DNA from: a virus
Lineage: Duplodnaviria > Caudoviricetes
Reading direction: 5' to 3' (one strand)
Length of the DNA: 64,000 bases
Virus record (IMG/VR): IMGVR_UViG_3300015214_000034
Span: 4,313 to 68,312 of that record
Made by a program: the position numbers and the translations under genes. The notes below the pieces were generated by a model. It was not told the DNA's origin. It was given only the letters and a program-made list of their open reading frames with translations, and ran no database searches. Of the stretch, positions 37,065 to 45,045 are shown one piece after another (position 1 is the stretch's first letter; each line of letters begins with the position of its first letter).

Positions 37065-37603
37065 CAGTCATAGTCCTCCTGCGCGATGGGCCAGTCCCAA
37101 GGATAGCGACCGCCATAGGGCCGGACGCAATCGCTGGTCCCATGGGGCACCGCCCCGTCCAGCGTCACGTCGGTATCGCCGAGGCCGTAGCAGACCAGAT
37201 TGGCGGACAGCAGCCGGTTCCACAGCGCCATCGGCAGCGGCGGGCCACCATCGACCGGGGTGAAGAACTCGACCTCGGCCGGGCCGGCCTTGGCCCGCTT
37301 GATGTTGCTGTTGCCGCTGGCGTCGGCGAACAGATCAGGGGACGCGGCCAGATCGGCGGCCAGCATCGCGGCGACTTCCTGAACGATGGTCGGGGCCGGA
37401 TCGACAGCCGGGTCGGGCGCGGTGTCGCACCACGGCAGGGTCAGCAACATGCGGGTGGCGCTGATCAGGGCGCGGCCCTTGGCGTCATCGTTCAGCAGCG
37501 CCCAAGCGACCGCCCGGCTGATGTCCCCGGCGAGGTAGATATCGGCGTCCGCGACGCTGATGAAGGCGTCGTAATCGTTCGCCCCGATGGTGATCGTCGC
37601 CAT
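37064..37603 (-). CDS. Head-tail adaptor (DnaT-like family)
   Basis: YDAFISVADADIY..RA..W......K.RAL..AT; KRAKAGPAEVEF. Confidence 0.75.
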   Translation of the reverse strand: MATITIGANDYDAFISVADADIYLAGDISRAVAWALLNDDAKGRALISATRMLLTLPWCDTAPDPAVDPAPTIVQEVAAMLAADLAASPDLFADASGNSNIKRAKAGPAEVEFFTPVDGGPPLPMALWNRLLSANLVCYGLGDTDVTLDGAVPHGTSDCVRPYGGRYPWDWPIAQEDYD

Positions 37604-39165
37604 TACGCAGCCCTCCGCTTGGCCATTTCCTGCCGGCGCTTGACCATGGCCTTCGCCATGTTCTTGCGGGAGCGCAGGACGCGGCGCTTCGCCAGTTCGT
37701 CCTCCGGCGTCTGATCGAGCGGGTCGGCCGGGTCGGGCTTGGCGTTCGGGTCGGTGCGGCCGGGGTTCAGCGACAGGTCCATGTCGTCCATGCGCTCGGG
37801 CGGGCGCGTGAGGCCGAGCAGATCGTAGATCTCGCCGACGGCCGGGTCGTCCGGCATGACAGGGGCACCGGCCTGCGCCAGCTTGGCCAGCGCGTCGAGC
37901 ACCTGTTCGATGTCGCGGTCGCTGATTTCGTTCACGCCCATCTGCGGGCAAAGTTCGGGGGGCCAGCCGTTCAGTTCGGCCAGCGGTGCCAGGACATCGC
38001 GGTCGTAGATCTCGCACAGATCGAGCAGCGTCGATGTCACGGTCAGGTAGAACGTGCCGACCTTGGACCGGGACAGCGCCAGCGAGCCGGAGCCGTCGGC
38101 CCCGAGGAGCAGATGCTCGACGCCGAGGATGCGGGCGAGTTCCTGATTCATCCGATTGACGGCGTTGGCCATCGAATCGAACGACGTGCTGTCGCCGGAC
38201 AGCAGTTCCAGCGCCCACTTCGGCACGCTGCTGACCGTCTGGCTCTTGTCCACGCTGGCCGCGATATAGGTGTCCGACGGCAGGAGCATCCCCGATTTCT
38301 CGTTGCGGATATGCTTGTCGAGCCAGTTGCGGAGCGGGGCCAGCAGGGACGTGCGGCGGGCCTCGGCCTGCGCCCGGGCGTCCGATCCCGGAGGGCCAGC
38401 GTCCAAGACCTCCTGCCGGAGTTCGCCCAGCGGCGCGCGCGCGACCGGGATGCCGCGCAGATCAGTGGTGAAGCCGATTTCCTCCAGCCAGAGGAACGTC
38501 TCCAGCCGGGCGGCGGTCACGGCCAGATGGCGGAACAGGCCGACGCCCTCGGGGCTGTCGGTCAGCGTGTCGTCCACGGCATAGACGATCTTGCTGCGGG
38601 GCAGTTCGACATCGGCGAATCCTGGCACGCGCTGGATCACCGATTCGACGGTGCCGCCCCGGTCGCGCTTCCACCGGCTGATGGTGCGCTGCGGGCGATG
38701 TTCGATGTCGAGGAGGCCGATGGTCCCGTCGGGGTTCTGCTTGGCCGTCCATTCCTGAATCGTGAAGCCGTGCAGGCGGAACGCGGCGGTCTTGCGGACG
38801 ACTTGCGACCAGCTTGTCGTCATGTCGTAGAGCATCGCATAGGCTTGGTCGGCATAGCCTTGCGCGGTGGCGGTGTCGGCTTCGGACAGGTTCTCGGGCG
38901 GATTGACCGTCCACACGGCGTTGCTGATCAGGTTCAGAAACAGGCGAACGCCGGCCCCGATGATCGACACGTCGCGGACGAGGCGGTCATATTCGTCGAA
39001 TCGACGCGGCCCGACCAGATTGATGAGCCGATCTGGCTCGTCGAACGTGCCAGCCCCTTCCCCATTGATGACACCGCCTGATGCACGGCTCGTGCCCAAG
39101 GTTTCCGTAGGCGCAGCCCGCTTGAACAGCGCGTCGCCCGCTCGCTTGAAAATGCTGTCCGCCAA
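37603..39165 (-). CDS. Portal protein (DUF935-like)
   Basis: 520 aa first head gene; GFTIQEW; GVGLFR; GIPV; LLG..GSLALS. Confidence 0.85.
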   Translation of the reverse strand: MADSIFKRAGDALFKRAAPTETLGTSRASGGVINGEGAGTFDEPDRLINLVGPRRFDEYDRLVRDVSIIGAGVRLFLNLISNAVWTVNPPENLSEADTATAQGYADQAYAMLYDMTTSWSQVVRKTAAFRLHGFTIQEWTAKQNPDGTIGLLDIEHRPQRTISRWKRDRGGTVESVIQRVPGFADVELPRSKIVYAVDDTLTDSPEGVGLFRHLAVTAARLETFLWLEEIGFTTDLRGIPVARAPLGELRQEVLDAGPPGSDARAQAEARRTSLLAPLRNWLDKHIRNEKSGMLLPSDTYIAASVDKSQTVSSVPKWALELLSGDSTSFDSMANAVNRMNQELARILGVEHLLLGADGSGSLALSRSKVGTFYLTVTSTLLDLCEIYDRDVLAPLAELNGWPPELCPQMGVNEISDRDIEQVLDALAKLAQAGAPVMPDDPAVGEIYDLLGLTRPPERMDDMDLSLNPGRTDPNAKPDPADPLDQTPEDELAKRRVLRSRKNMAKAMVKRRQEMAKRRAA

Positions 39166-39725: not shown

Positions 39726-39900
39726 AGCCTCCTCCTCTGGTTTCCTTGCCGAGCGGGATTGCCCGGCCCGGCTGGCATATCACGACGGCTCTCGGCCGGA
39801 TATAGCGAAGGGCCGGGAGATCGCTCCCCCGGCCCCTCTATCCTTTCGCCCTTCACATCGTCCGGGCAAGGGCGGGTCGCCCTGCGGGAATTAGGTCAGA

Positions 39901-40161
39901 TCAGCCGCCGCGCGAGGCGGCGCGCTTGCGGTGGCCGGCTTCGTGTCGGAGCGAGTTCTGGAGCGCGGCGTCGAACGGCGCGCGGGTCATGTTCATGGCC
40001 GGGCCGGGGACGGCCAGGCGCGGCGCGCGCAGGGCGGTCGCCGGGACGAACAGGCCGTAGATGAAGGCGACCCCGCGCTCCAGCGCCGAGACGGCGGCGA
40101 GCGGCGCGGCTGCGATCAGGGACAGGGCGGCGGCGAAGAATGGGCGGTAACGCAGAACCAT
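39901..40161 (-). CDS. Small hypothetical protein
   Basis: AAGGAGG RBS; hydrophobic N-half. Confidence 0.45.
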   Translation of the reverse strand: MVLRYRPFFAAALSLIAAAPLAAVSALERGVAFIYGLFVPATALRAPRLAVPGPAMNMTRAPFDAALQNSLRHEAGHRKRAASRGG

Positions 40162-40289
40162 GGGTTTCCTCCTTGGCTGTCCGATAGTGGACCCGGGCAA
40201 GGTGCGCCGATGGCAGCGGGCGGTCAACGGAAAAGGGCGAGGCCATTGCTGACCCCGCCCTGCGACCCGGCGCGTTGATCGCGCTGCGG

Positions 40290-40481
40290 CTAACTGATTC
40301 CAAGCCTCTCTTGCCGCTCTCTGATCGCGGTTGCAACAGGCCCCGGAACAGGCACCTGTCCCGAGGCCCATCGCCGAACCGACGACGCATCGACGCCAAG
40401 CCAATCGGCCAGCCGGGTCTGCCACCCATGCTTGGGCGGGAACAGTGCCCGGCCGGCCTCCTTGAATTGATCAGCGGTCAC
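40290..40481 (-). CDS. Small XRE/Cro-like HTH protein coupled to TROVE gene
   Basis: WQTRLADWLGVDASSVRRWASG. Confidence 0.75.
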   Translation of the reverse strand: MTADQFKEAGRALFPPKHGWQTRLADWLGVDASSVRRWASGQVPVPGPVATAIRERQERLGIS

Positions 40482-41787
40482 GCGCCTCGCTTTCGTGGAC
40501 GAATCGGAGGACGTTCTCGCTGAAACCGTCGATGCGCGTCCAGTCCCCGTAGCCGACGCCGTTGCGATAGCTGGCCACGTTGATCATGTAGCCGCGCGCG
40601 CCCTCGCGGGGACCGCCGACGCGATCATGGGACTGCTCGTCCGTGATCACGATCATCCGGTCATAGCGGGTGCGGAGATTGACCTCCGCAATCGCGTGCC
40701 CGAGGCGGGTGCCGCCATGCGGCTGCGAGCGGCGGATCGCATCGACGCCAGCCATGCCACGACGCGGGGGAACCTCCTTCACGTCATTGGAGAAGCTGAA
40801 CACCCGGACATCGCCGTGGATGATCGAACCGAGGGCGCAGGCCGCGTCCATGCGGGTCAGATCAGACTTGGCCGACAACTTGTCGTCCATCGAACCGCTG
40901 ACATCGACCAGCACCACGGTCTTGCCCGGCAGGACCGGCATGTCCTCGACCGCCGCGCACAGCGCCTCGTCCAGCGCCGGCTCGAACTGCGGTGCAGCCC
41001 GGGCAGCGGCGATGTAGCGGAACGGCAGGACATAGCGCGCACCCTTGCGGGCGATGATCGCCTGCTTGACCAGATCGGAGTCGACGCCGACCTCGGCCAT
41101 CTTTCGCAGGTTGCGGATCAGGGCCATGTAGCCGAGCCGGCCTTCGCTGATCAGCCGCGTGAACGCCTCGGCCTTGTCGGCCCCGCCCGAAAGCGCGACC
41201 TCCCAAGTGTCCGGCGACGGCAACTCGCCAGCAATGAGCGCCTTCCACATCGCGGCCTGCTCGTCGTCCTTCGGCTTCGGGTGAACGAGGCGCAGGACAT
41301 CGCGCAGCCGCACGGTGGTCGCGCGGTCATACTTGGCAAGCTGGTAGGCGTCGAACTGGCCGAACGCGAGGGCAAGGCCCTTCTTCATCGCGGCCGGGAT
41401 GGGGCGCTTTCCGTCCTTCCACAGCATGGCCAGCAACTCGCCCATTTCATCGGCGCGGCGCACGACGGCCGGATAGTCGTCGGGGCGCAGCGCGGAGATC
41501 TGGCCGGCACGAGCCAGTCCGGCGATCAGCCACAGCGGGGCGTGGCGCAGGTTCATCTGGCTGCGGGCCTCGATCGCCAGCGCGGCGACATCGGCCGGCG
41601 CGGCCTTGCTGACCAGATCGGCGATGCGGTCGGCGATGGCGACCCCGCCCTCATAGAACTGGTCCTCCCACAGGAGGCACGACGCGACAGCGCGGCGCAG
41701 TTCAGCGGCGGCGTTCTTCGGGGGGATGCCAGGCGCGCCCTCGTGGGTGCGGGCGGTGTTGACGGGCTTGGTGTTCAATCGAGCCAT
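40471..41787 (-). CDS. rsr: Ro60/Rsr-like TROVE + vWA RNA-binding protein
   Basis: LRRAVASCLLWEDQFYE; MNLRHAP; RADE; YQLAKY; TWEVALS; LGYMALIRNLR; vWA MIDAS VLVDVSGSM and IVITDEQ; CCCACCAAGGAGA RBS. Confidence 0.93.
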   Translation of the reverse strand: MARLNTKPVNTARTHEGAPGIPPKNAAAELRRAVASCLLWEDQFYEGGVAIADRIADLVSKAAPADVAALAIEARSQMNLRHAPLWLIAGLARAGQISALRPDDYPAVVRRADEMGELLAMLWKDGKRPIPAAMKKGLALAFGQFDAYQLAKYDRATTVRLRDVLRLVHPKPKDDEQAAMWKALIAGELPSPDTWEVALSGGADKAEAFTRLISEGRLGYMALIRNLRKMAEVGVDSDLVKQAIIARKGARYVLPFRYIAAARAAPQFEPALDEALCAAVEDMPVLPGKTVVLVDVSGSMDDKLSAKSDLTRMDAACALGSIIHGDVRVFSFSNDVKEVPPRRGMAGVDAIRRSQPHGGTRLGHAIAEVNLRTRYDRMIVITDEQSHDRVGGPREGARGYMINVASYRNGVGYGDWTRIDGFSENVLRFVHESEARDR

Positions 41788-41828
41788 GATGGCGTTCTCC
41801 TTGGTGGGCAGCGGCGGCCACAAGGGAA

Positions 41829-41908
41829 GCGGGGAATGGTCGGGAACGGAGTGCCGGGCGTTACCCGGACGTTTGCGAAACGAAGTATCCGTTGTCCTAC
41901 ACCACCGC
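41829..41908 (-). ncRNA. Short Y-RNA-like unit 1 (no tRNA domain), immediately 5' of rsr
   Basis: GCGG-TGGTGTAG-GACAACGGA-TACTTCG-...-TCCGTT-CCCGACC-ATTCC-CCGC; shares conserved blocks with units 2-4. Confidence 0.7.
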
Positions 41909-41950
41909 CGCCCATGAGGCCGTCGCCGGGTTTGCGGACATCGCCGATCA

Positions 41951-42090
41951 GGGTCGCGAGGGAAACAAGTCGAAGGCGGTCCTATGTCGGTTGCTCTACC
42001 CGCTGAGCTACCCCGGCGAACCGGGGGCTGGATTCGAACCAGCGACCTACTGATTATCGAAGTATCCGCATTCTACACCACTCGCGACCC
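41951..42090 (-). ncRNA. yrlA: YrlA-like Y RNA unit 2 with permuted tRNA-Thr-like domain
   Basis: 10-bp terminal stem GGGTCGCGAG/CTCGCGACCC; T arm GCTGG-TTCGAAT-CCAGC; acceptor CCCCGG-TTCG-CCGGGG; D arm TAGCTCAGCGGGTAGAGC. Confidence 0.88.
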
Positions 42091-42133
42091 GGAACGACGA
42101 TGCCCAGATCGTCCACCCAAGGTGCGCAGGCAA

Positions 42134-42273
42134 GGACCGCGAGGAATAGGCGGCTCCTGAACGTGAAGCGTCCTAACCACTAGACGACCAAGTGCCGAGG
42201 CCCTTGGGCGGGATTCGAACCCGCGTTTCTCGCTCCAGATGCGAAGTAGCAGAAGCCTGCACCATCGCGGTCC
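42134..42273 (-). ncRNA. yrlA: YrlA-like Y RNA unit 3 with permuted tRNA-Glu/Asp-like domain
   Basis: 9-bp terminal stem GGACCGCGA/TCGCGGTCC; T arm GCGGG-TTCGAAT-CCCGC; acceptor CCAAG...CTTGG closed by a loop; D arm TCGTCTAGTGGTTAGGACG. Confidence 0.88.
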
Positions 42274-42275
42274 AT

Positions 42276-42355
42276 GCCTGCCCGGGAAACTGGCGGATGC
42301 GGCGTCTTTCCGAGTTACAAAGTCGATGAAACCGCGTCCTGCACCACGGGCAGGC
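42276..42355 (-). ncRNA. Short Y-RNA-like unit 4 (no tRNA domain), first in array
   Basis: 9-bp terminal stem GCCTGCCCG/CGGGCAGGC; TGGTGCAG, TTCATCGA and TTTCC blocks. Confidence 0.72.
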
Positions 42356-42360
42356 GTCGG

Positions 42361-42388
42361 CAAATAGCGCATTGTGCGCGGTTTGCAA
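42361..42388 (-). promoter_or_regulatory. Sigma70-like promoter for Y RNA-rsr operon
   Basis: TTGCAA-N16-TATTTG ending 5 nt upstream of the 5' G of unit 4. Confidence 0.55.
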
Positions 42389-42454
42389 GCGGAAAGGTGC
42401 CCCCGCCGCGCTCACCGGCTTCCGTGGTCTGGCTCCACAAGGGGCATGGGTCGA

Positions 42455-42529
42455 TGGTTGCAGAGGAGGGATTCGAACCCCCGGCCTGTGGATTATGAGA
42501 CCACCGAGCTACCGCTGCTCTACCCTGCA
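42455..42529 (-). tRNA. tRNA with CAT anticodon (fMet-like scaffold, atypical)
   Basis: TGCAGGGTAGAGCAGCGGTAGCTCGGTGGT-CTCATAA-TCCACAGGCCGGGGGTTCGAATCCCTCCTCTGCA-A-CCA; full cloverleaf with encoded CCA. Confidence 0.92.
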
Positions 42530-42899
42530 CCATCGCGAGGGCGATGGGGGTATCCGGTCCATTCGCCCGAAGGCTGCGCCCGGCTCGATCCATCGCCCTG
42601 TCGCCTTCGTGGACATTTTCGGGGACCGTCTTGAAGGCGCAAGTCATCCAGTCCCGCGCTGATGGTTGCCGCGATCTGGCCAGCTTGGCAAGGGGGAAGG
42701 GTGCCGAGGACAGAATTGATCGGTTGCCCGACCAGCCGGTGCCGACTGTGCGGCGTGGCCAACTCCTTCGCGATTAAGCGGCTTGGCGGATAACCCCACC
42801 GCTCCTCGGCGTGCCAGCGGCCCGGGTCCGTCATGCGCTAGGCGCGTCGTGGGCGGTTGCCGCTGGCGGGTGCCGGCATAGGCGCGTCCTGGCCGGCGA

Positions 42900-44483
42900 T
42901 CAACTCGCTCCCCACGGATCATCATCGGTCGCCGGCTCCGGCGCGTCGTCGATGTCGTCCATTTCCTCGGGCGCGGCGTTCTGGGCGACCGGCACGGTGC
43001 CGACAAGCGCCTGAAATGCCCGGCTGCTGGCGTCCACCTGATCCTTGTATGTGCCGGACGGGAAGTTGCGGAGTTCCTCGATATAGGCGGCGTTCCAGTC
43101 GCCCCGGACCAGATGGACGCGCTCGGCCCCGACCTGTGCGGCAAACGGATCGGCGCGCGTCACCTTGTCGCCCGTCTCCGGGGTGCAGATGAAATTGAAG
43201 CCCATCAGGATCTCCGACACGCGCCACTTGAACGCCTTGCCGCCGAATCCCGGGTCTTGAGGGATGCTGATCTTGACCGTCGGGATTTCGTTCCGGTCAT
43301 TGATCGAAACCTCCTCGATCATCGTCTCGACTTCGGTCGGATTGGCGCGCCGCCGCTCGACGTGGCGGATATAGACATCGCCGCCGACGCGGGTCATCAG
43401 GACGCGCACGGTGTAGGGCGATTTCTTCCGCTTGCTGCCGGCCAAGTCCCACCCGGCCCATGTCACGCCGCCAGCCGGCACATGGTCCACGATGTCGATG
43501 TGCTCGACCTTGAACATGCCGCCTTCGCGCGGGGCCGGCCGCTGCTGATACTGGCCGGCATACATGTAATCGCCGGATTTCTTAACGTCCTCGGTGACGG
43601 CCGGGCCGGCGCGCACCGGGTCCATCAGTTCGCCCTCATAGGAGCGCGGGTCGGCCCAGTCCTTCGTCTTGCCCGGGCGATCTGGGTCGGGGACTTGCAG
43701 CGGTGTCGTGCAGCGCCGGGCCGTCTCGAACTCGTTGGGGATCATCAGATGGACGAACCCATAGTCGCGGGCGAGGATGACGCCGGTCAGATCTTCCTCG
43801 TGCAAGCGCTGCATGACGATCACGATGGCCGACGTTTCCCAGTCATTGATGCGGTTCAGGCCGCCCTCAATGAACTTGCGGGTAGCGTTGTCGCGCTGCG
43901 TCTCGGATTCGGCCCCATCGACGCTGTGCGGATCGTCCACGATCAGGCGGTCGCCGCGCTTGCCGGTCACGGACTTGAAGGCGACGCCGAGACGCGAGCC
44001 GGTGTCGTAATTGCTGAACGACTGCACGCCTTCAGTCTTGAGTTCGACCTCCGGCCACAGCGATTGGAACCATTCGGAGCGGACCAGATCGAGCGTCTTG
44101 CTGGTATCGCGCTTGACGTTGGACAGATCGAACGACGTGCTGACAAAGCGCAGGTGGCGCTTGCCGAGCGGACCCCATTCCCACGCCTGCCACATCACCG
44201 AGACGATGGTCGATTTCGACGAGCCGGGCGGCACGTTGATGATCAGACGCGGTTTCAGCTTGCCCCGGCTGATCGCCTCCAGATGGTCGCACATGGCTTG
44301 CATGTGCCAGTTCCAGCGCAGCCGCGTGCCCGGCTCGATGACCTTCCACGCTTCCTGCACGAACTCGGCGAACGACTGACAGCGGCGGCGGACGCCATCG
44401 GCATCGGCCCGGGCCTCGTCCAGCATCGCGGCCTCTTGCCGGCGCGCGATCTCCTCCCGGTAGAACTTGGTTGAGAGCGCCAT
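42900..44483 (-). CDS. terL: Terminase large subunit
   Basis: LIINVPPGSSKST Walker A; LIVDDP Walker B; YQQRP; WDLA; FPSGTYKDQVDA. Confidence 0.95.
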   Translation of the reverse strand: MALSTKFYREEIARRQEAAMLDEARADADGVRRRCQSFAEFVQEAWKVIEPGTRLRWNWHMQAMCDHLEAISRGKLKPRLIINVPPGSSKSTIVSVMWQAWEWGPLGKRHLRFVSTSFDLSNVKRDTSKTLDLVRSEWFQSLWPEVELKTEGVQSFSNYDTGSRLGVAFKSVTGKRGDRLIVDDPHSVDGAESETQRDNATRKFIEGGLNRINDWETSAIVIVMQRLHEEDLTGVILARDYGFVHLMIPNEFETARRCTTPLQVPDPDRPGKTKDWADPRSYEGELMDPVRAGPAVTEDVKKSGDYMYAGQYQQRPAPREGGMFKVEHIDIVDHVPAGGVTWAGWDLAGSKRKKSPYTVRVLMTRVGGDVYIRHVERRRANPTEVETMIEEVSINDRNEIPTVKISIPQDPGFGGKAFKWRVSEILMGFNFICTPETGDKVTRADPFAAQVGAERVHLVRGDWNAAYIEELRNFPSGTYKDQVDASSRAFQALVGTVPVAQNAAPEEMDDIDDAPEPATDDDPWGAS

Positions 44484-44514
44484 CGGCTCCCGGATCAGGG
44501 TCGCGCCCTGATCG

Positions 44515-45045
44515 TCAGTCGTCAGCGCTGCCATCGACAATCTCGTCGGGGTCCAGCCCCTCGGCGAGCGCAGCGAGGCGGCCATACTCGGCAAGCTGTT
44601 CGTCGGTCAGGCGCGACAGATCGGGGGCAGGGCCGCCGAACGGCTGGCGAGCCTTGTCGCCGACTTCCACCTTGGTCGTCCAGCCGCCAAGCCGGGCCAG
44701 GATGAACTTCTGCGCGTCCAGATCGCCCTTCGCCGTCTCGCTTTCCGCGTTCAGGGCGCGGTTGATCACCTGCGAGCCGACGCTGGCCAGCATTTCGGCT
44801 CGGCCGAGTTCCAGATCATCGGAGAAGTGCCGGCGCAGAGTGTCGCGGCTGACGCCGATCAGGCGGGCGATGTAGTGCTCGCCATGGACCGGGAAGGTCT
44901 TGGCATAGGTGCGGACCTTGAGCCGCTGCTCCTCGGTCGGCACGAACGGCGGGTTGCCGAACTGCCCCTTGGGCGCGCCTCGGGCATCATCGTCCCGCGT
45001 CTTCTGGTTGTGCGCGGTGAGGGGCTTTTCTGGCGTGGTGGACAT
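44515..45045 (-). CDS. terS: Terminase small subunit
   Basis: HTH IARLIGVSRDTLRRHF..EL..G; directly upstream of terL. Confidence 0.85.
   Translation of the reverse strand: MSTTPEKPLTAHNQKTRDDDARGAPKGQFGNPPFVPTEEQRLKVRTYAKTFPVHGEHYIARLIGVSRDTLRRHFSDDLELGRAEMLASVGSQVINRALNAESETAKGDLDAQKFILARLGGWTTKVEVGDKARQPFGGPAPDLSRLTDEQLAEYGRLAALAEGLDPDEIVDGSADD

What the first reader, a model, noticed from the sequence alone, without database searches (positions are those of the whole stretch)
40290..42388. Phage-encoded Ro60 operon: promoter, four tandem Y-like RNAs, Ro60, HTH
Seen (minus strand): TTGCAA-N16-TATTTG, then four units (42355-42276, 42273-42134, 42090-41951, 41908-41829). Each has a different terminal stem but the same TGGTG(C/T)AG, (TA/TT)C(T/A)TCG and TTCC blocks and a covarying inner stem. 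A full TROVE+vWA gene and an overlapping HTH gene follow. Known: bacterial Ro60 (Rsr) binds Y RNAs; Deinococcus Rsr/Y RNA tethers PNPase; Salmonella rsr-yrl-rtcBA responds to tRNA damage; some phages carry Ro60 and YrlA. Inference: this phage has an expanded, diversified four-RNA array without RtcB, inserted between terminase and portal. It could redirect host RNA decay or counter RNA-targeting defence. I cannot confirm whether such an array has been described.
Basis: partly seen in the sequence, partly recalled or inferred. Interest (0 to 1): 0.92.

Follow-up and report, generated by a model that had tools for sequence, protein, structure and literature searches.

The report
Phage Ro60 with four Y RNAs
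A complete 68-kb phage genome carries a self-contained cassette for the ring-shaped RNA-binding protein Ro60 and four partner "Y RNAs"; the cassette is real and well supported, but it is a typical member of a partnership already known in bacteria and phages.

Summary
On the minus strand lie a conserved promoter-like segment, four structured RNA units, a 438-aa Ro60 gene, an overlapping 63-aa HTH gene and an intrinsic terminator.

- **The RNAs.** All four units share one "handle": a terminal stem, a bulged U, a GG:CC pair step, an 8-bp inner stem, a UACUUCG-type block and a 3' UUCC. Units 2 and 3 carry a permuted tRNA-like body of YrlA type. Units 1 and 4 are short hairpins.
- **Specificity.** A covariance model built from related loci hits exactly these four places in the whole phage genome.
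- **Support from relatives.** The same model finds one to seven units (mostly two to seven) beside the Ro60 gene in about 35 phage and bacterial loci. Covariation is very strong: 91% of cells paired, against 60% when shuffled.
- **The protein.** It folds like Ro60. Its closest solved relative is Thermus phage phiLo Ro60, which binds two phage Y-like RNAs and host PNPase.
- **Evolution.** The genome has no RtcB. Units evolve as a mosaic, and the body of unit 4 was swapped or the unit lost in near-identical phages.
- **Verdict.** This is a new member of a known kind. The scan has repeatedly found the same type of cassette on other DNA. What the cassette does during infection is still inferred.

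The parts
42361..42388 (-). Promoter-like segment: TTGCAA, 16 nt, TATTTG (also readable as CTTGCA ... CTATTT), ending about 6 nt before unit 1
   Evidence: The sequence is present. It is conserved in L004 and L029 (identical), L028 (CTATAT variant) and L003 (TTGCCA ... TAATTG), while the upstream DNA differs. The generic sigma-70 scan does not call it. From memory only, it fits the alphaproteobacterial CTTGAC-N17-CTATAT type.
42276..42355 (-). Y RNA unit 1: a short, YrlB-like unit made of the handle plus a small hairpin body
   Evidence: R1 model hit of 28.5-31.6 bits, E about 1e-5. Fold z-score -3.2. The inner stem shows two compensatory changes against L004.
42134..42273 (-). Y RNA unit 2: YrlA-type, made of the handle, an extra 5-bp/7-nt-loop hairpin in the variable-arm position, a T arm, a closed acceptor-like stem and a D arm
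   Evidence: R1 hit of 114 bits. Partial Rfam YrlA hit of 19.2 bits over the T arm, closed acceptor-like stem and D arm. The terminal stem is wholly different in L003 but still pairs.
41951..42090 (-). Y RNA unit 3: YrlA-type with the canonical architecture, made of the handle, a T arm, a 6-bp acceptor-like stem closed by UUCG, and a D arm
   Evidence: R1 hit of 109 bits. Rfam YrlA RF02553 hit of 46.9 bits, E 4e-9, over the full model, but below the gathering score of 69. The terminal stem shows compensatory changes in L003 and L004.
41824..41913 (-). Y RNA unit 4: a short unit with a full handle and a small hairpin body. It is absent from the closest relatives, and in others its position carries a tRNA-like body.
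   Evidence: R1 hit of 38 bits, E 4e-7. It is missing in L003 and L004. In L028 and L029 the same flanks, terminal stem and handle carry a 131-nt tRNA-like body. Its own fold z-score is weak, -0.74.
40471..41787 (-). Ro60 (TROVE plus vWA with a MIDAS metal site), 438 aa, with ATG preceded by AAGGAG
   Evidence: Pfam TROVE 66 bits and VWA_2 28.6 bits. PHROG 850 RNA-binding protein, E 4e-48. Thermus phage phiLo Ro60 (9KOP/9L5Y), E 9e-30, end to end. AlphaFold model pLDDT 87.6, and its top 13 PDB fold matches are all Ro60. The MIDAS residues D295, S297, S299, T360 and D383 are invariant in 42 homologues.
40290..40481 (-). Small HTH protein, 63 aa, with a GTG start overlapping the Ro60 stop by 11 nt
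   Evidence: Weak Pfam hits to P22_Cro, YdaS and HTH_31, all below cut-off. PHROG 3626, function unknown. It is conserved in the same overlapping position in L003, L004, L028-L031, L017 and L026. It is absent after the more distant Ro60 genes.
40234..40261 (-). Intrinsic terminator-like hairpin followed by a T run, closing the cassette
   Evidence: Terminator scan: 12 pairs, 8 of them G-C.
42455..42529 (-). tRNA-Met(CAT), a neighbour upstream of the promoter-like segment. It is probably a separate gene, not a Y unit.
   Evidence: Rfam tRNA 62.8 bits and ARAGORN. The R1 model gives only a T-arm hit here, E 0.56. The number and kind of tRNAs at this position vary among relatives.

Best explanation
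This is an accessory cassette of a complete tailed-phage genome. It makes a Ro60 ribonucleoprotein set: one Ro60 ring protein and four cognate Y RNAs.

**Shown here**
- The four RNAs share a conserved handle: a terminal stem, an invariant bulged U, two G:C pairs, a UG(Y)AG block, an 8-bp inner stem that often carries a mismatch at its fourth pair, a (A/U)UACUUCG block, and on the 3' side GYY-UR-UUCC.
- Their bodies differ. Two are circularly permuted tRNA mimics of the YrlA type. Two are short hairpins like YrlB.

**Inferred**
- The handle is the Ro60 binding site.
- The units are transcribed from the conserved promoter-like segment as one precursor together with the Ro60-HTH message. They are then cut out and stabilised by Ro60.
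- The different bodies act as adaptors that tether Ro60 to different host factors. By analogy with phiLo, Deinococcus and Salmonella, the first candidates are PNPase and tRNA-recognising enzymes. The effect would be to shape degradation or quality control of structured RNA during infection.
- The small HTH protein, translationally coupled to Ro60, probably regulates the cassette.
For: - **Protein.** TROVE plus vWA above cut-off. Full-length similarity to the solved phiLo Ro60. The predicted fold matches only Ro60 structures at the top. The MIDAS residues are invariant.
- **RNAs in this genome.** There are exactly four model hits in the whole genome, all directly upstream of Ro60 on its strand. 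Unit 3 matches Rfam YrlA at E 4e-9 and unit 2 matches it partially.
- **Covariation.** Across 50 units from 15 loci, 91.1% of cells are paired, against 60.0% when shuffled and 37-52% when slid. In 29 of 31 pairs both sides change. The inner stem was not part of the model's structure, yet it is 83% paired with 8 of 8 pairs covarying. Even the two near-invariant G:C handle pairs switch to A:U or C:G in some loci.
- **Co-occurrence.** Units lie beside the Ro60 gene in 13 viral contigs, in cultured Xanthomonas, Brevundimonas, Rhizobium, Microcystis and crAss001 phages, and in 11 bacterial MAG loci.
- **Cassette limits.** A conserved promoter-like segment precedes unit 1 and a terminator follows the HTH gene. 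In L031 the array, Ro60 and HTH travel together in a different genomic context.
- **Published precedent.** phiLo Ro60 binds two phage-encoded Yrl RNAs and forms ternary complexes with host PNPase in vitro (PMC12135203). YrlA and YrlB of M. smegmatis are processed from one precursor upstream of rsr (PMC4201824).
Against: - There are no expression data.
- No unit reaches the Rfam YrlA gathering score, and the published GNCGAAN0-1G motif is not present exactly.
- The model does not detect the experimentally validated phiLo Yrl RNAs, so the link to a proven Ro60-binding RNA is indirect.
- Unit 4 folds no better than shuffled sequence and is dispensable in the closest relatives.
- The promoter fails a generic sigma-70 scan.
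- PNPase tethering is shown only in vitro for a 28%-identical protein. I put that step at about 0.4.
Confidence: 0.8

Rival explanations
1. The units are not free trans-acting RNAs. They are cis-acting leader structures of the Ro60 mRNA, for example Ro60 binding sites that feed back on its own translation or stability.
For: All four lie between the promoter-like segment and the Ro60 start. Unit 4 ends only 36 nt before the ATG. No terminator separates the array from the gene.
Against: - In crAss001 and Microcystis phage Mvi-JY20 the units lie downstream of the gene.
- The bodies are tRNA-like modules with conserved T and D arms. That is hard to explain for a leader.
- In M. smegmatis, Y RNAs upstream of rsr are cut from a precursor and bind Rsr as separate RNAs (PMC4201824).
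- Unit number varies from one to seven without loss of the gene.
Confidence: 0.07
2. The tRNA-like units act mainly as decoys or sponges for host tRNA-targeting defence nucleases or tRNA-modifying enzymes. Ro60 serves to stabilise them. On this reading the cassette is a counter-defence module, not an RNA-decay adaptor.
For: - Units 2 and 3 mimic the tRNA elbow: T arm, D arm and a closed acceptor stem.
- Bodies are exchanged quickly between near-identical phages. Against L003, Ro60 is 97.6% identical at the DNA level while units 2 and 3 are 80% and 76%. Unit 4's body was swapped. That pattern is compatible with an arms race.
- Phage tRNA genes sit next to the array.
Against: - Canonical anticodon nucleases need an anticodon loop. 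Unit 3 has none, and unit 2 has only a variable-arm-like hairpin whose loop is not conserved in its L003 counterpart.
- Two of the four units have no tRNA-like part.
- No defence or anti-defence gene was linked to the cassette here.
- Mosaicism is common in phages in any case.
Confidence: 0.1
3. The units are decaying remnants of a phage tRNA gene cluster with no function of their own.
For: ARAGORN calls several homologous units in other loci as odd tRNAs. A real tRNA-Met is adjacent.
Against: The non-tRNA handle is conserved, with compensatory changes, across very distant phages and bacteria, and it always lies beside Ro60. The arm order is permuted, not degraded.
Confidence: 0.02

Closest known systems
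Thermus phage phiLo Ro60 with Yrl1 and Yrl2 (PMC12135203; PDB 9KOP, 9L5Y)
   Same: It is a phage-encoded Ro60 with its own Y-like RNA genes directly upstream. It is the best sequence match (E 9e-30, end to end) and the best fold match. Its MIDAS motif is conserved.
   Different: - Protein identity is only about 26-28%.
- phiLo has two RNAs, found through a CGAA motif. Here there are four, with a UGG(U/C)G ... UACUUCG ... UUCC handle.
- My model of that handle finds nothing in the phiLo locus.
- No HTH partner has been reported for phiLo.
Bacterial Rsr with YrlA and YrlB (Salmonella Typhimurium rsr-yrlBA-rtcBA; Mycobacterium smegmatis; Rfam RF02553; PMC4201824)
   Same: - The RNAs lie within a few hundred nt of Ro60 on the same strand.
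- One class has a T arm, a closed acceptor stem and a D arm. The other is a short hairpin.
- The region after the inner stem (CGGAUACUU) aligns with the canonical CGAAUGCUU.
- The RNAs are probably processed from one precursor.
   Different: - Scores are below the Rfam gathering score: 46.9 and 19.2 against 69 bits.
- The exact GNCGAAN0-1G motif is absent.
- There are four units, not two.
- The genome has no RtcB, and no sigma-54/RtcR context was seen.
- The cassette is phage-borne and carries an HTH gene.
Deinococcus radiodurans Rsr-Yrn1/Yrn2-PNPase (RYPER)
   Same: It is a Ro60 ring with several small RNAs encoded upstream. The Y RNA acts as a tether to an exoribonuclease, which is the mechanism proposed here by analogy. 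The fold match to 2NVO supports the relationship.
   Different: The Yrn1 arm order differs from YrlA and is thought to have evolved independently (PMC4201824). PNPase involvement is not tested here.
Metazoan Ro60 with two to four Y RNAs
   Same: One Ro60 serves several Y RNAs. They share a bulged binding helix formed by the 5' and 3' ends and differ in their loops. The fold matches 1YVP, 2I91 and 9NEN.
   Different: Metazoan Y RNAs are separate Pol III genes without tRNA-like bodies. Their helix has a bulged C in a UGGUCCGA context, not a bulged U before GG:CC.

Membership tests
Ro60 / Rsr (TROVE plus vWA ring protein) | TROVE domain above the curated cut-off | tested here: met
   PF05731 scores 66 bits against a cut-off of 23.
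Ro60 / Rsr (TROVE plus vWA ring protein) | C-terminal vWA domain with a MIDAS metal site (DxSxS, T, D) | tested here: met
   VWA_2 scores 28.6 bits against a cut-off of 27. D295, S297, S299, T360 and D383 are invariant in 42 homologues.
Ro60 / Rsr (TROVE plus vWA ring protein) | Overall Ro60 fold: a helical-repeat ring closed by the vWA domain | tested here: met
   The model has pLDDT 87.6 and pTM 0.80. Its 13 best PDB matches are all Ro60, from phiLo, human, Xenopus and Deinococcus, with TM 0.59-0.69. At 438 aa the protein is about 60-90 residues shorter than those.
Ro60 / Rsr (TROVE plus vWA ring protein) | Binds Y RNA | not testable with these tools
   This is inferred from strict genomic linkage with the handle-bearing units.
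YrlA (Rfam RF02553) | Reaches the Rfam gathering score | tested here: not met
   Unit 3 scores 46.9 bits (E 4e-9) and unit 2 scores 19.2 bits, against a gathering score of 69. Units 1 and 4 give no hit.
YrlA (Rfam RF02553) | tRNA-like module in the order T arm, closed acceptor-like stem, D arm, enclosed by a stem formed by the 5' and 3' ends | tested here: met
   Met for units 2 and 3, with covariation in all three arms. Units 1 and 4 lack the module.
YrlA (Rfam RF02553) | GNCGAAN0-1G motif near the 5' end (PMC4201824) | tested here: not met
   The exact motif is in none of the four units. Units 3 and 4 have CGGAUAC at the aligned place. The family-wide block here is C-R-G-N-U-A-C-U-U-C.
YrlA (Rfam RF02553) | Encoded within 4 kb of a Ro60 gene | tested here: met
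   All four units lie 36-570 nt upstream of Ro60 on the same strand.
YrlB-type short Y RNAs | Short hairpin RNA next to YrlA and rsr that keeps the Ro60-binding stem but has no full tRNA-like module | tested here: met
   Units 1 and 4 are 80 and 90 nt. Both have a full handle and no T or D arm. There is no sequence homology to Salmonella YrlB, which is itself not conserved outside Salmonella enterica (PMC4201824).

The most novel reading that the evidence does not exclude
The array is a modular adaptor set, with a constant Ro60 handle and exchangeable bodies that are shuffled between phages as independent units. The evidence is that units 2 and 3 are far more diverged than the flanking Ro60 and HTH genes, and that unit 4's body was replaced or the unit lost. 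On this reading each body would recruit or titrate a different host factor. The turnover would reflect an arms race with host RNA-based defence or RNA decay, not ordinary mosaic drift.
Probability: 0.15. Interest if true: 0.7.

Novelty: new member of a known kind. Interest (0 to 1): 0.38.

Why it matters
What phage-encoded Ro60 does during infection is unknown, and the only studied case (phiLo) is biochemical.

This locus and its relatives add three things:
- They define a well-supported RNA handle that current Rfam annotation does not call at its gathering threshold.
- They show that several Y RNAs per Ro60 is the rule in this large clade.
- They show that units are exchanged independently of the protein gene.

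Cultured relatives carry the same arrays, so the question can be tested at the bench. They include Xanthomonas phage MET23-P3, the Brevundimonas jumbo phages and Rhizobium phage RHph_TM30. Caulobacter phages CcrPW and CcrColossus carry the Ro60 gene, but I did not scan them for arrays.

For this particular window the value is mainly correct annotation.

Tried and rejected
- **Antisense targeting by the handle.** I listed all perfect antisense matches of the four units in the window. The longest are 12 nt, with two or three per unit, scattered over both strands. My own rough estimate of chance, about one per unit and more in G+C-rich DNA, is of that order. No shuffled control was run. The UGGUG block is also conserved in phages of unrelated hosts. 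Rejected as evidence.
- **An operator for the HTH protein.** A palindrome lies between the two promoter hexamers. It is not conserved in L028 or L003. Dropped.
- **tRNA-Met as a fifth unit.** Its leader shares 14 nt with the 5' end of unit 2. The model gives only a T-arm hit there (E 0.56). Full-length model hits over tRNA pairs in L004, L029 and L030 are the known tandem-tRNA false positive (PMC4201824). Not counted as a unit.
- **Temperate lifestyle.** No tyrosine integrase was found. Other recombinases were not searched, so the lifestyle is left open.
- **Generic sigma-70 promoter scan.** No call in 39800-43000.
- **Reviews not held.** Two reviews on bacterial Y RNAs (PMC10870794, PMC6047535) are not in the library. 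My statement that no paper describes arrays of three or more units in phages therefore rests on a limited search.
Full report
**Context**

The window is bases 4313-68312 of a 68,312-bp virus record with direct terminal repeats, rated complete. Around the finding, all on the minus strand, lie:
- a small terminase subunit (44515-45045) and a large terminase subunit (42900-44594);
- a tRNA-Met (42455-42529);
- the region in question;
- a Mu-type portal (37603-39165) and a Mu F-like protein.

G+C content is about 65% throughout. The complete genome holds no RtcB and no tyrosine integrase.

**The observation**

Read on the minus strand, the order is as follows.
- TTGCAA, 16 nt, TATTTG (42388-42361).
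- Four units.
- A 438-aa ORF starting at an ATG preceded by AAGGAG (41787-40471).
- A 63-aa ORF whose GTG overlaps the previous stop by 11 nt (40481-40290).
- A 12-pair hairpin followed by a T run (40261-40234).

Two features were not mentioned: the tRNA-Met just upstream and the terminator.

**The protein**

- Pfam gives TROVE (66 bits) and vWA above cut-off. PHROGs gives family 850, "RNA-binding protein", at E 4e-48.
- The only solved structures found by sequence are those of Thermus phage phiLo Ro60 (9KOP, 9L5Y), at E 9e-30. The alignment covers residues 12-432 of 438.
- An AlphaFold model built on 42 homologues has pLDDT 87.6 and pTM 0.80. Its 13 best PDB matches are all Ro60 proteins, from phiLo, human, Xenopus and Deinococcus, with TM 0.59-0.69.
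- The MIDAS residues are invariant among the homologues.
- The subfamily of about 435 aa is very large. At least 8,000 protein clusters match at E below 1e-10, some named "60 kDa SS-A/Ro ribonucleoprotein" by their sources.
- The subfamily occurs in 96 cultured phage records. These include Xanthomonas, Brevundimonas, Caulobacter, Rhizobium, Microcystis and crAss-like phages.

**The RNAs**

Rfam at its gathering thresholds finds only the tRNA. With relaxed thresholds:
- unit 3 matches YrlA (RF02553) over the full model at 46.9 bits, E 4e-9;
- unit 2 matches the T arm, closed acceptor-like stem and D arm part at 19.2 bits;
- both are below the gathering score of 69.

The non-coding gaps before the Ro60 genes of Xanthomonas phage MET23-P3 and Brevundimonas phage Domovoi hold five similar units each. 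A simple pattern search found such units almost only in the few hundred bases before Ro60 in 13 viral contigs.

I aligned 21 long units and obtained a consensus structure with covariation in the terminal stem, T arm, acceptor-like stem and D arm. From that I built covariance model R1.

Scores are 114, 109, 38 and 28.5-31.6 bits.

**Covariation**

Fifty units from 15 sources were aligned to the model. I then added an 8-bp inner stem that was not part of the model's structure.
- Overall, 91.1% of cells form standard pairs. The figure is 60.0% after shuffling and 37-52% when the partners are slid by one to three columns.
- In 29 of 31 pairs both sides change.
- The inner stem is 83% paired, and all eight of its pairs covary. 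Its fourth pair is often a mismatch, as in units 1 and 3, or a 2-nt bulge, as in unit 4.
- The two near-invariant G:C pairs next to an invariant unpaired U also covary. They become A:U in four units and C:G in three.

The handle consensus runs: terminal stem, U, GG, (U/C)G, 0-1 nt, (U/A/C)AG, inner stem, N-U-(A/U)-C-(U/A)-U-C-(G), body, inner stem, G-Y-Y-U-R-U-U-C-C, terminal stem.

Within the window's closest relatives the compensatory changes can be read directly. The terminal stems of units 2 and 3 are rewritten in L003 and L004 yet still pair. The inner stem of unit 1 has two double changes in L004.

**Bodies**

- Unit 3 has the canonical YrlA layout: a short variable loop, a T arm, a 6-bp stem closed by UUCG, and a D arm.
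- Unit 2 has, in addition, a 5-bp hairpin with a 7-nt loop between the UACUUCG block and the T arm. That is the position of a tRNA variable arm. Long variable arms are known in YrlA RNAs (bioRxiv 10.1101/312249).
- Units 1 and 4 have only small hairpins, like the YrlB class (PMC4201824).

**How typical is four?**

R1 hits beside Ro60, on the same strand, number as follows.
- One to seven in the viral contigs and cultured phages. Examples are three in L003 and L004, five in Domovoi and seven in L006.
- One to six in 11 bacterial MAG loci from Alphaproteobacteria, Acidobacteriota and Desulfuromonadaceae.
- Six before the TROVE gene of Rhizobium phage RHph_TM30.
- Two or three after the gene in Microcystis phage Mvi-JY20 and crAss001.

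Four is therefore ordinary for this clade. R1 finds nothing in the phiLo locus.

**Turnover of units**

- L003 (Ro60 99% identical at protein level) and L004 (89%) lack unit 4 altogether.
- L028 (91%) and L029 (85%) have a unit at that place with the same flanks, terminal stem and handle, but with a 131-nt tRNA-like body.
- Against L003, DNA identity is 97.6% for Ro60, 99% for the HTH gene and 98.8% for unit 1. It is only 80% for unit 2 and 76% for unit 3.
- Against L004, unit 2 (95.7%) is more similar than Ro60 (86.3%).

The array is therefore a mosaic whose units are exchanged, replaced or lost independently of the protein gene.

**Cassette limits and the HTH gene**

The promoter-like segment is conserved right before unit 1 in L004, L029, L028 and L003, while the DNA upstream differs. 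Relatives have one, two or three tRNAs there, or an ORF. A generic sigma-70 scan does not call it. From memory only, it resembles the alphaproteobacterial CTTGAC-N17-CTATAT type.

The HTH ORF is conserved in the same overlapping position in eight loci (L003, L004, L028-L031, L017, L026), whose Ro60 is 60% or more identical. Among them is L031, where the cassette sits in a different neighbourhood, and two Hyphomicrobiaceae genomes. The more distant loci lack it. Its Pfam hits (P22_Cro, YdaS, HTH_31) are all below cut-off, so "HTH regulator" is an inference.

**What is known**

- Likely YrlA RNAs near Ro60 were reported in 254 bacteria and 22 phages, with several per locus in some. Y RNAs of M. 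smegmatis are processed from one precursor upstream of rsr (PMC4201824).
- phiLo Ro60 binds two phage-encoded Yrl RNAs found upstream of its gene and forms ternary complexes with host PNPase in vitro (PMC12135203).
- Jumbo-phage TROVE proteins have been noted together with a tRNA-like partner (PMC7824862).
- I found no paper describing arrays of three or more units with exchangeable bodies in phages. Two relevant reviews are not held.
- Earlier notes of this scan describe the same kind of cassette on many other genomes, including the same handle architecture. My own tests agree with those descriptions.

**Mechanism**

*Shown:* a Ro60-fold protein; four structured RNAs with a shared covarying handle and different bodies; strict linkage of the two across distant phages and bacteria; cassette-like limits.

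*Inferred:*
- The handle binds Ro60.
- The units are co-transcribed with the gene and processed.
- The bodies tether Ro60 to host partners such as PNPase or tRNA-recognising enzymes.
- The HTH protein regulates the cassette.

Because the genome has no RtcB, the Salmonella-type RNA-repair context does not apply here.

**Verdict**

The interpretation "Ro60 with Y RNAs in a phage" is right. The suggestion that the four-unit array is exceptional is not. It is a new member of a known kind with some useful comparative detail: a divergent handle, unit mosaicism and a travelling HTH gene.

Noticed in passing
window 42455-42543 (minus strand): The tRNA-Met gene encodes its own CCA. Its 5' leader (GATGG) can pair with the CCA plus trailer (CCATC). 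Leader plus first bases (14 nt, 42537-42524) are identical to the 5' end of Y unit 2. The same leader is present in L003, and in L004 with one change. This could be a trace of recombination between tRNA and Y units, or a shared processing signal.
   Followed up: partly
window 42091-42133 (minus strand), between units 2 and 3: The spacer holds a small 6-bp hairpin (GACGAU ... AUCGUC) that is kept in L003 and L004. It may be a processing signal.
   Followed up: no
L010:358-498: One unit in this viral contig carries, inside the usual handle, a D arm, an anticodon-like stem-loop and a T arm in normal tRNA order, not the permuted YrlA order. ARAGORN does not call it a tRNA.
   Followed up: no
L001:2805-2875, L008:2668-2737, L012:2845-2918, L015:2292-2359: ARAGORN reports tRNA-Asn, tRNA-Pro, tRNA-Thr and tRNA-Arg genes that coincide with the 5' halves of Y units. 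These are probably false tRNA calls that could enter phage annotations.
   Followed up: partly
L015 (three units) and some units of L006 and L012: The near-invariant GG:CC step of the handle is replaced by GC:GC in all three units of L015, and by AG:CU in units of L006 and L012. This lineage-wide co-change of the RNA handle might be matched by a change in the Ro60 binding surface.
   Followed up: no
window 41795-41808 and relatives: A CCCACC element lies directly before the AAGGAG of Ro60 and is conserved in L003, L028, L029 and L030. Another first-reader note reports the same element before many genes of this phage. I only tested, and did not support, its proposed pairing with the Y RNA handle.
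   Followed up: partly
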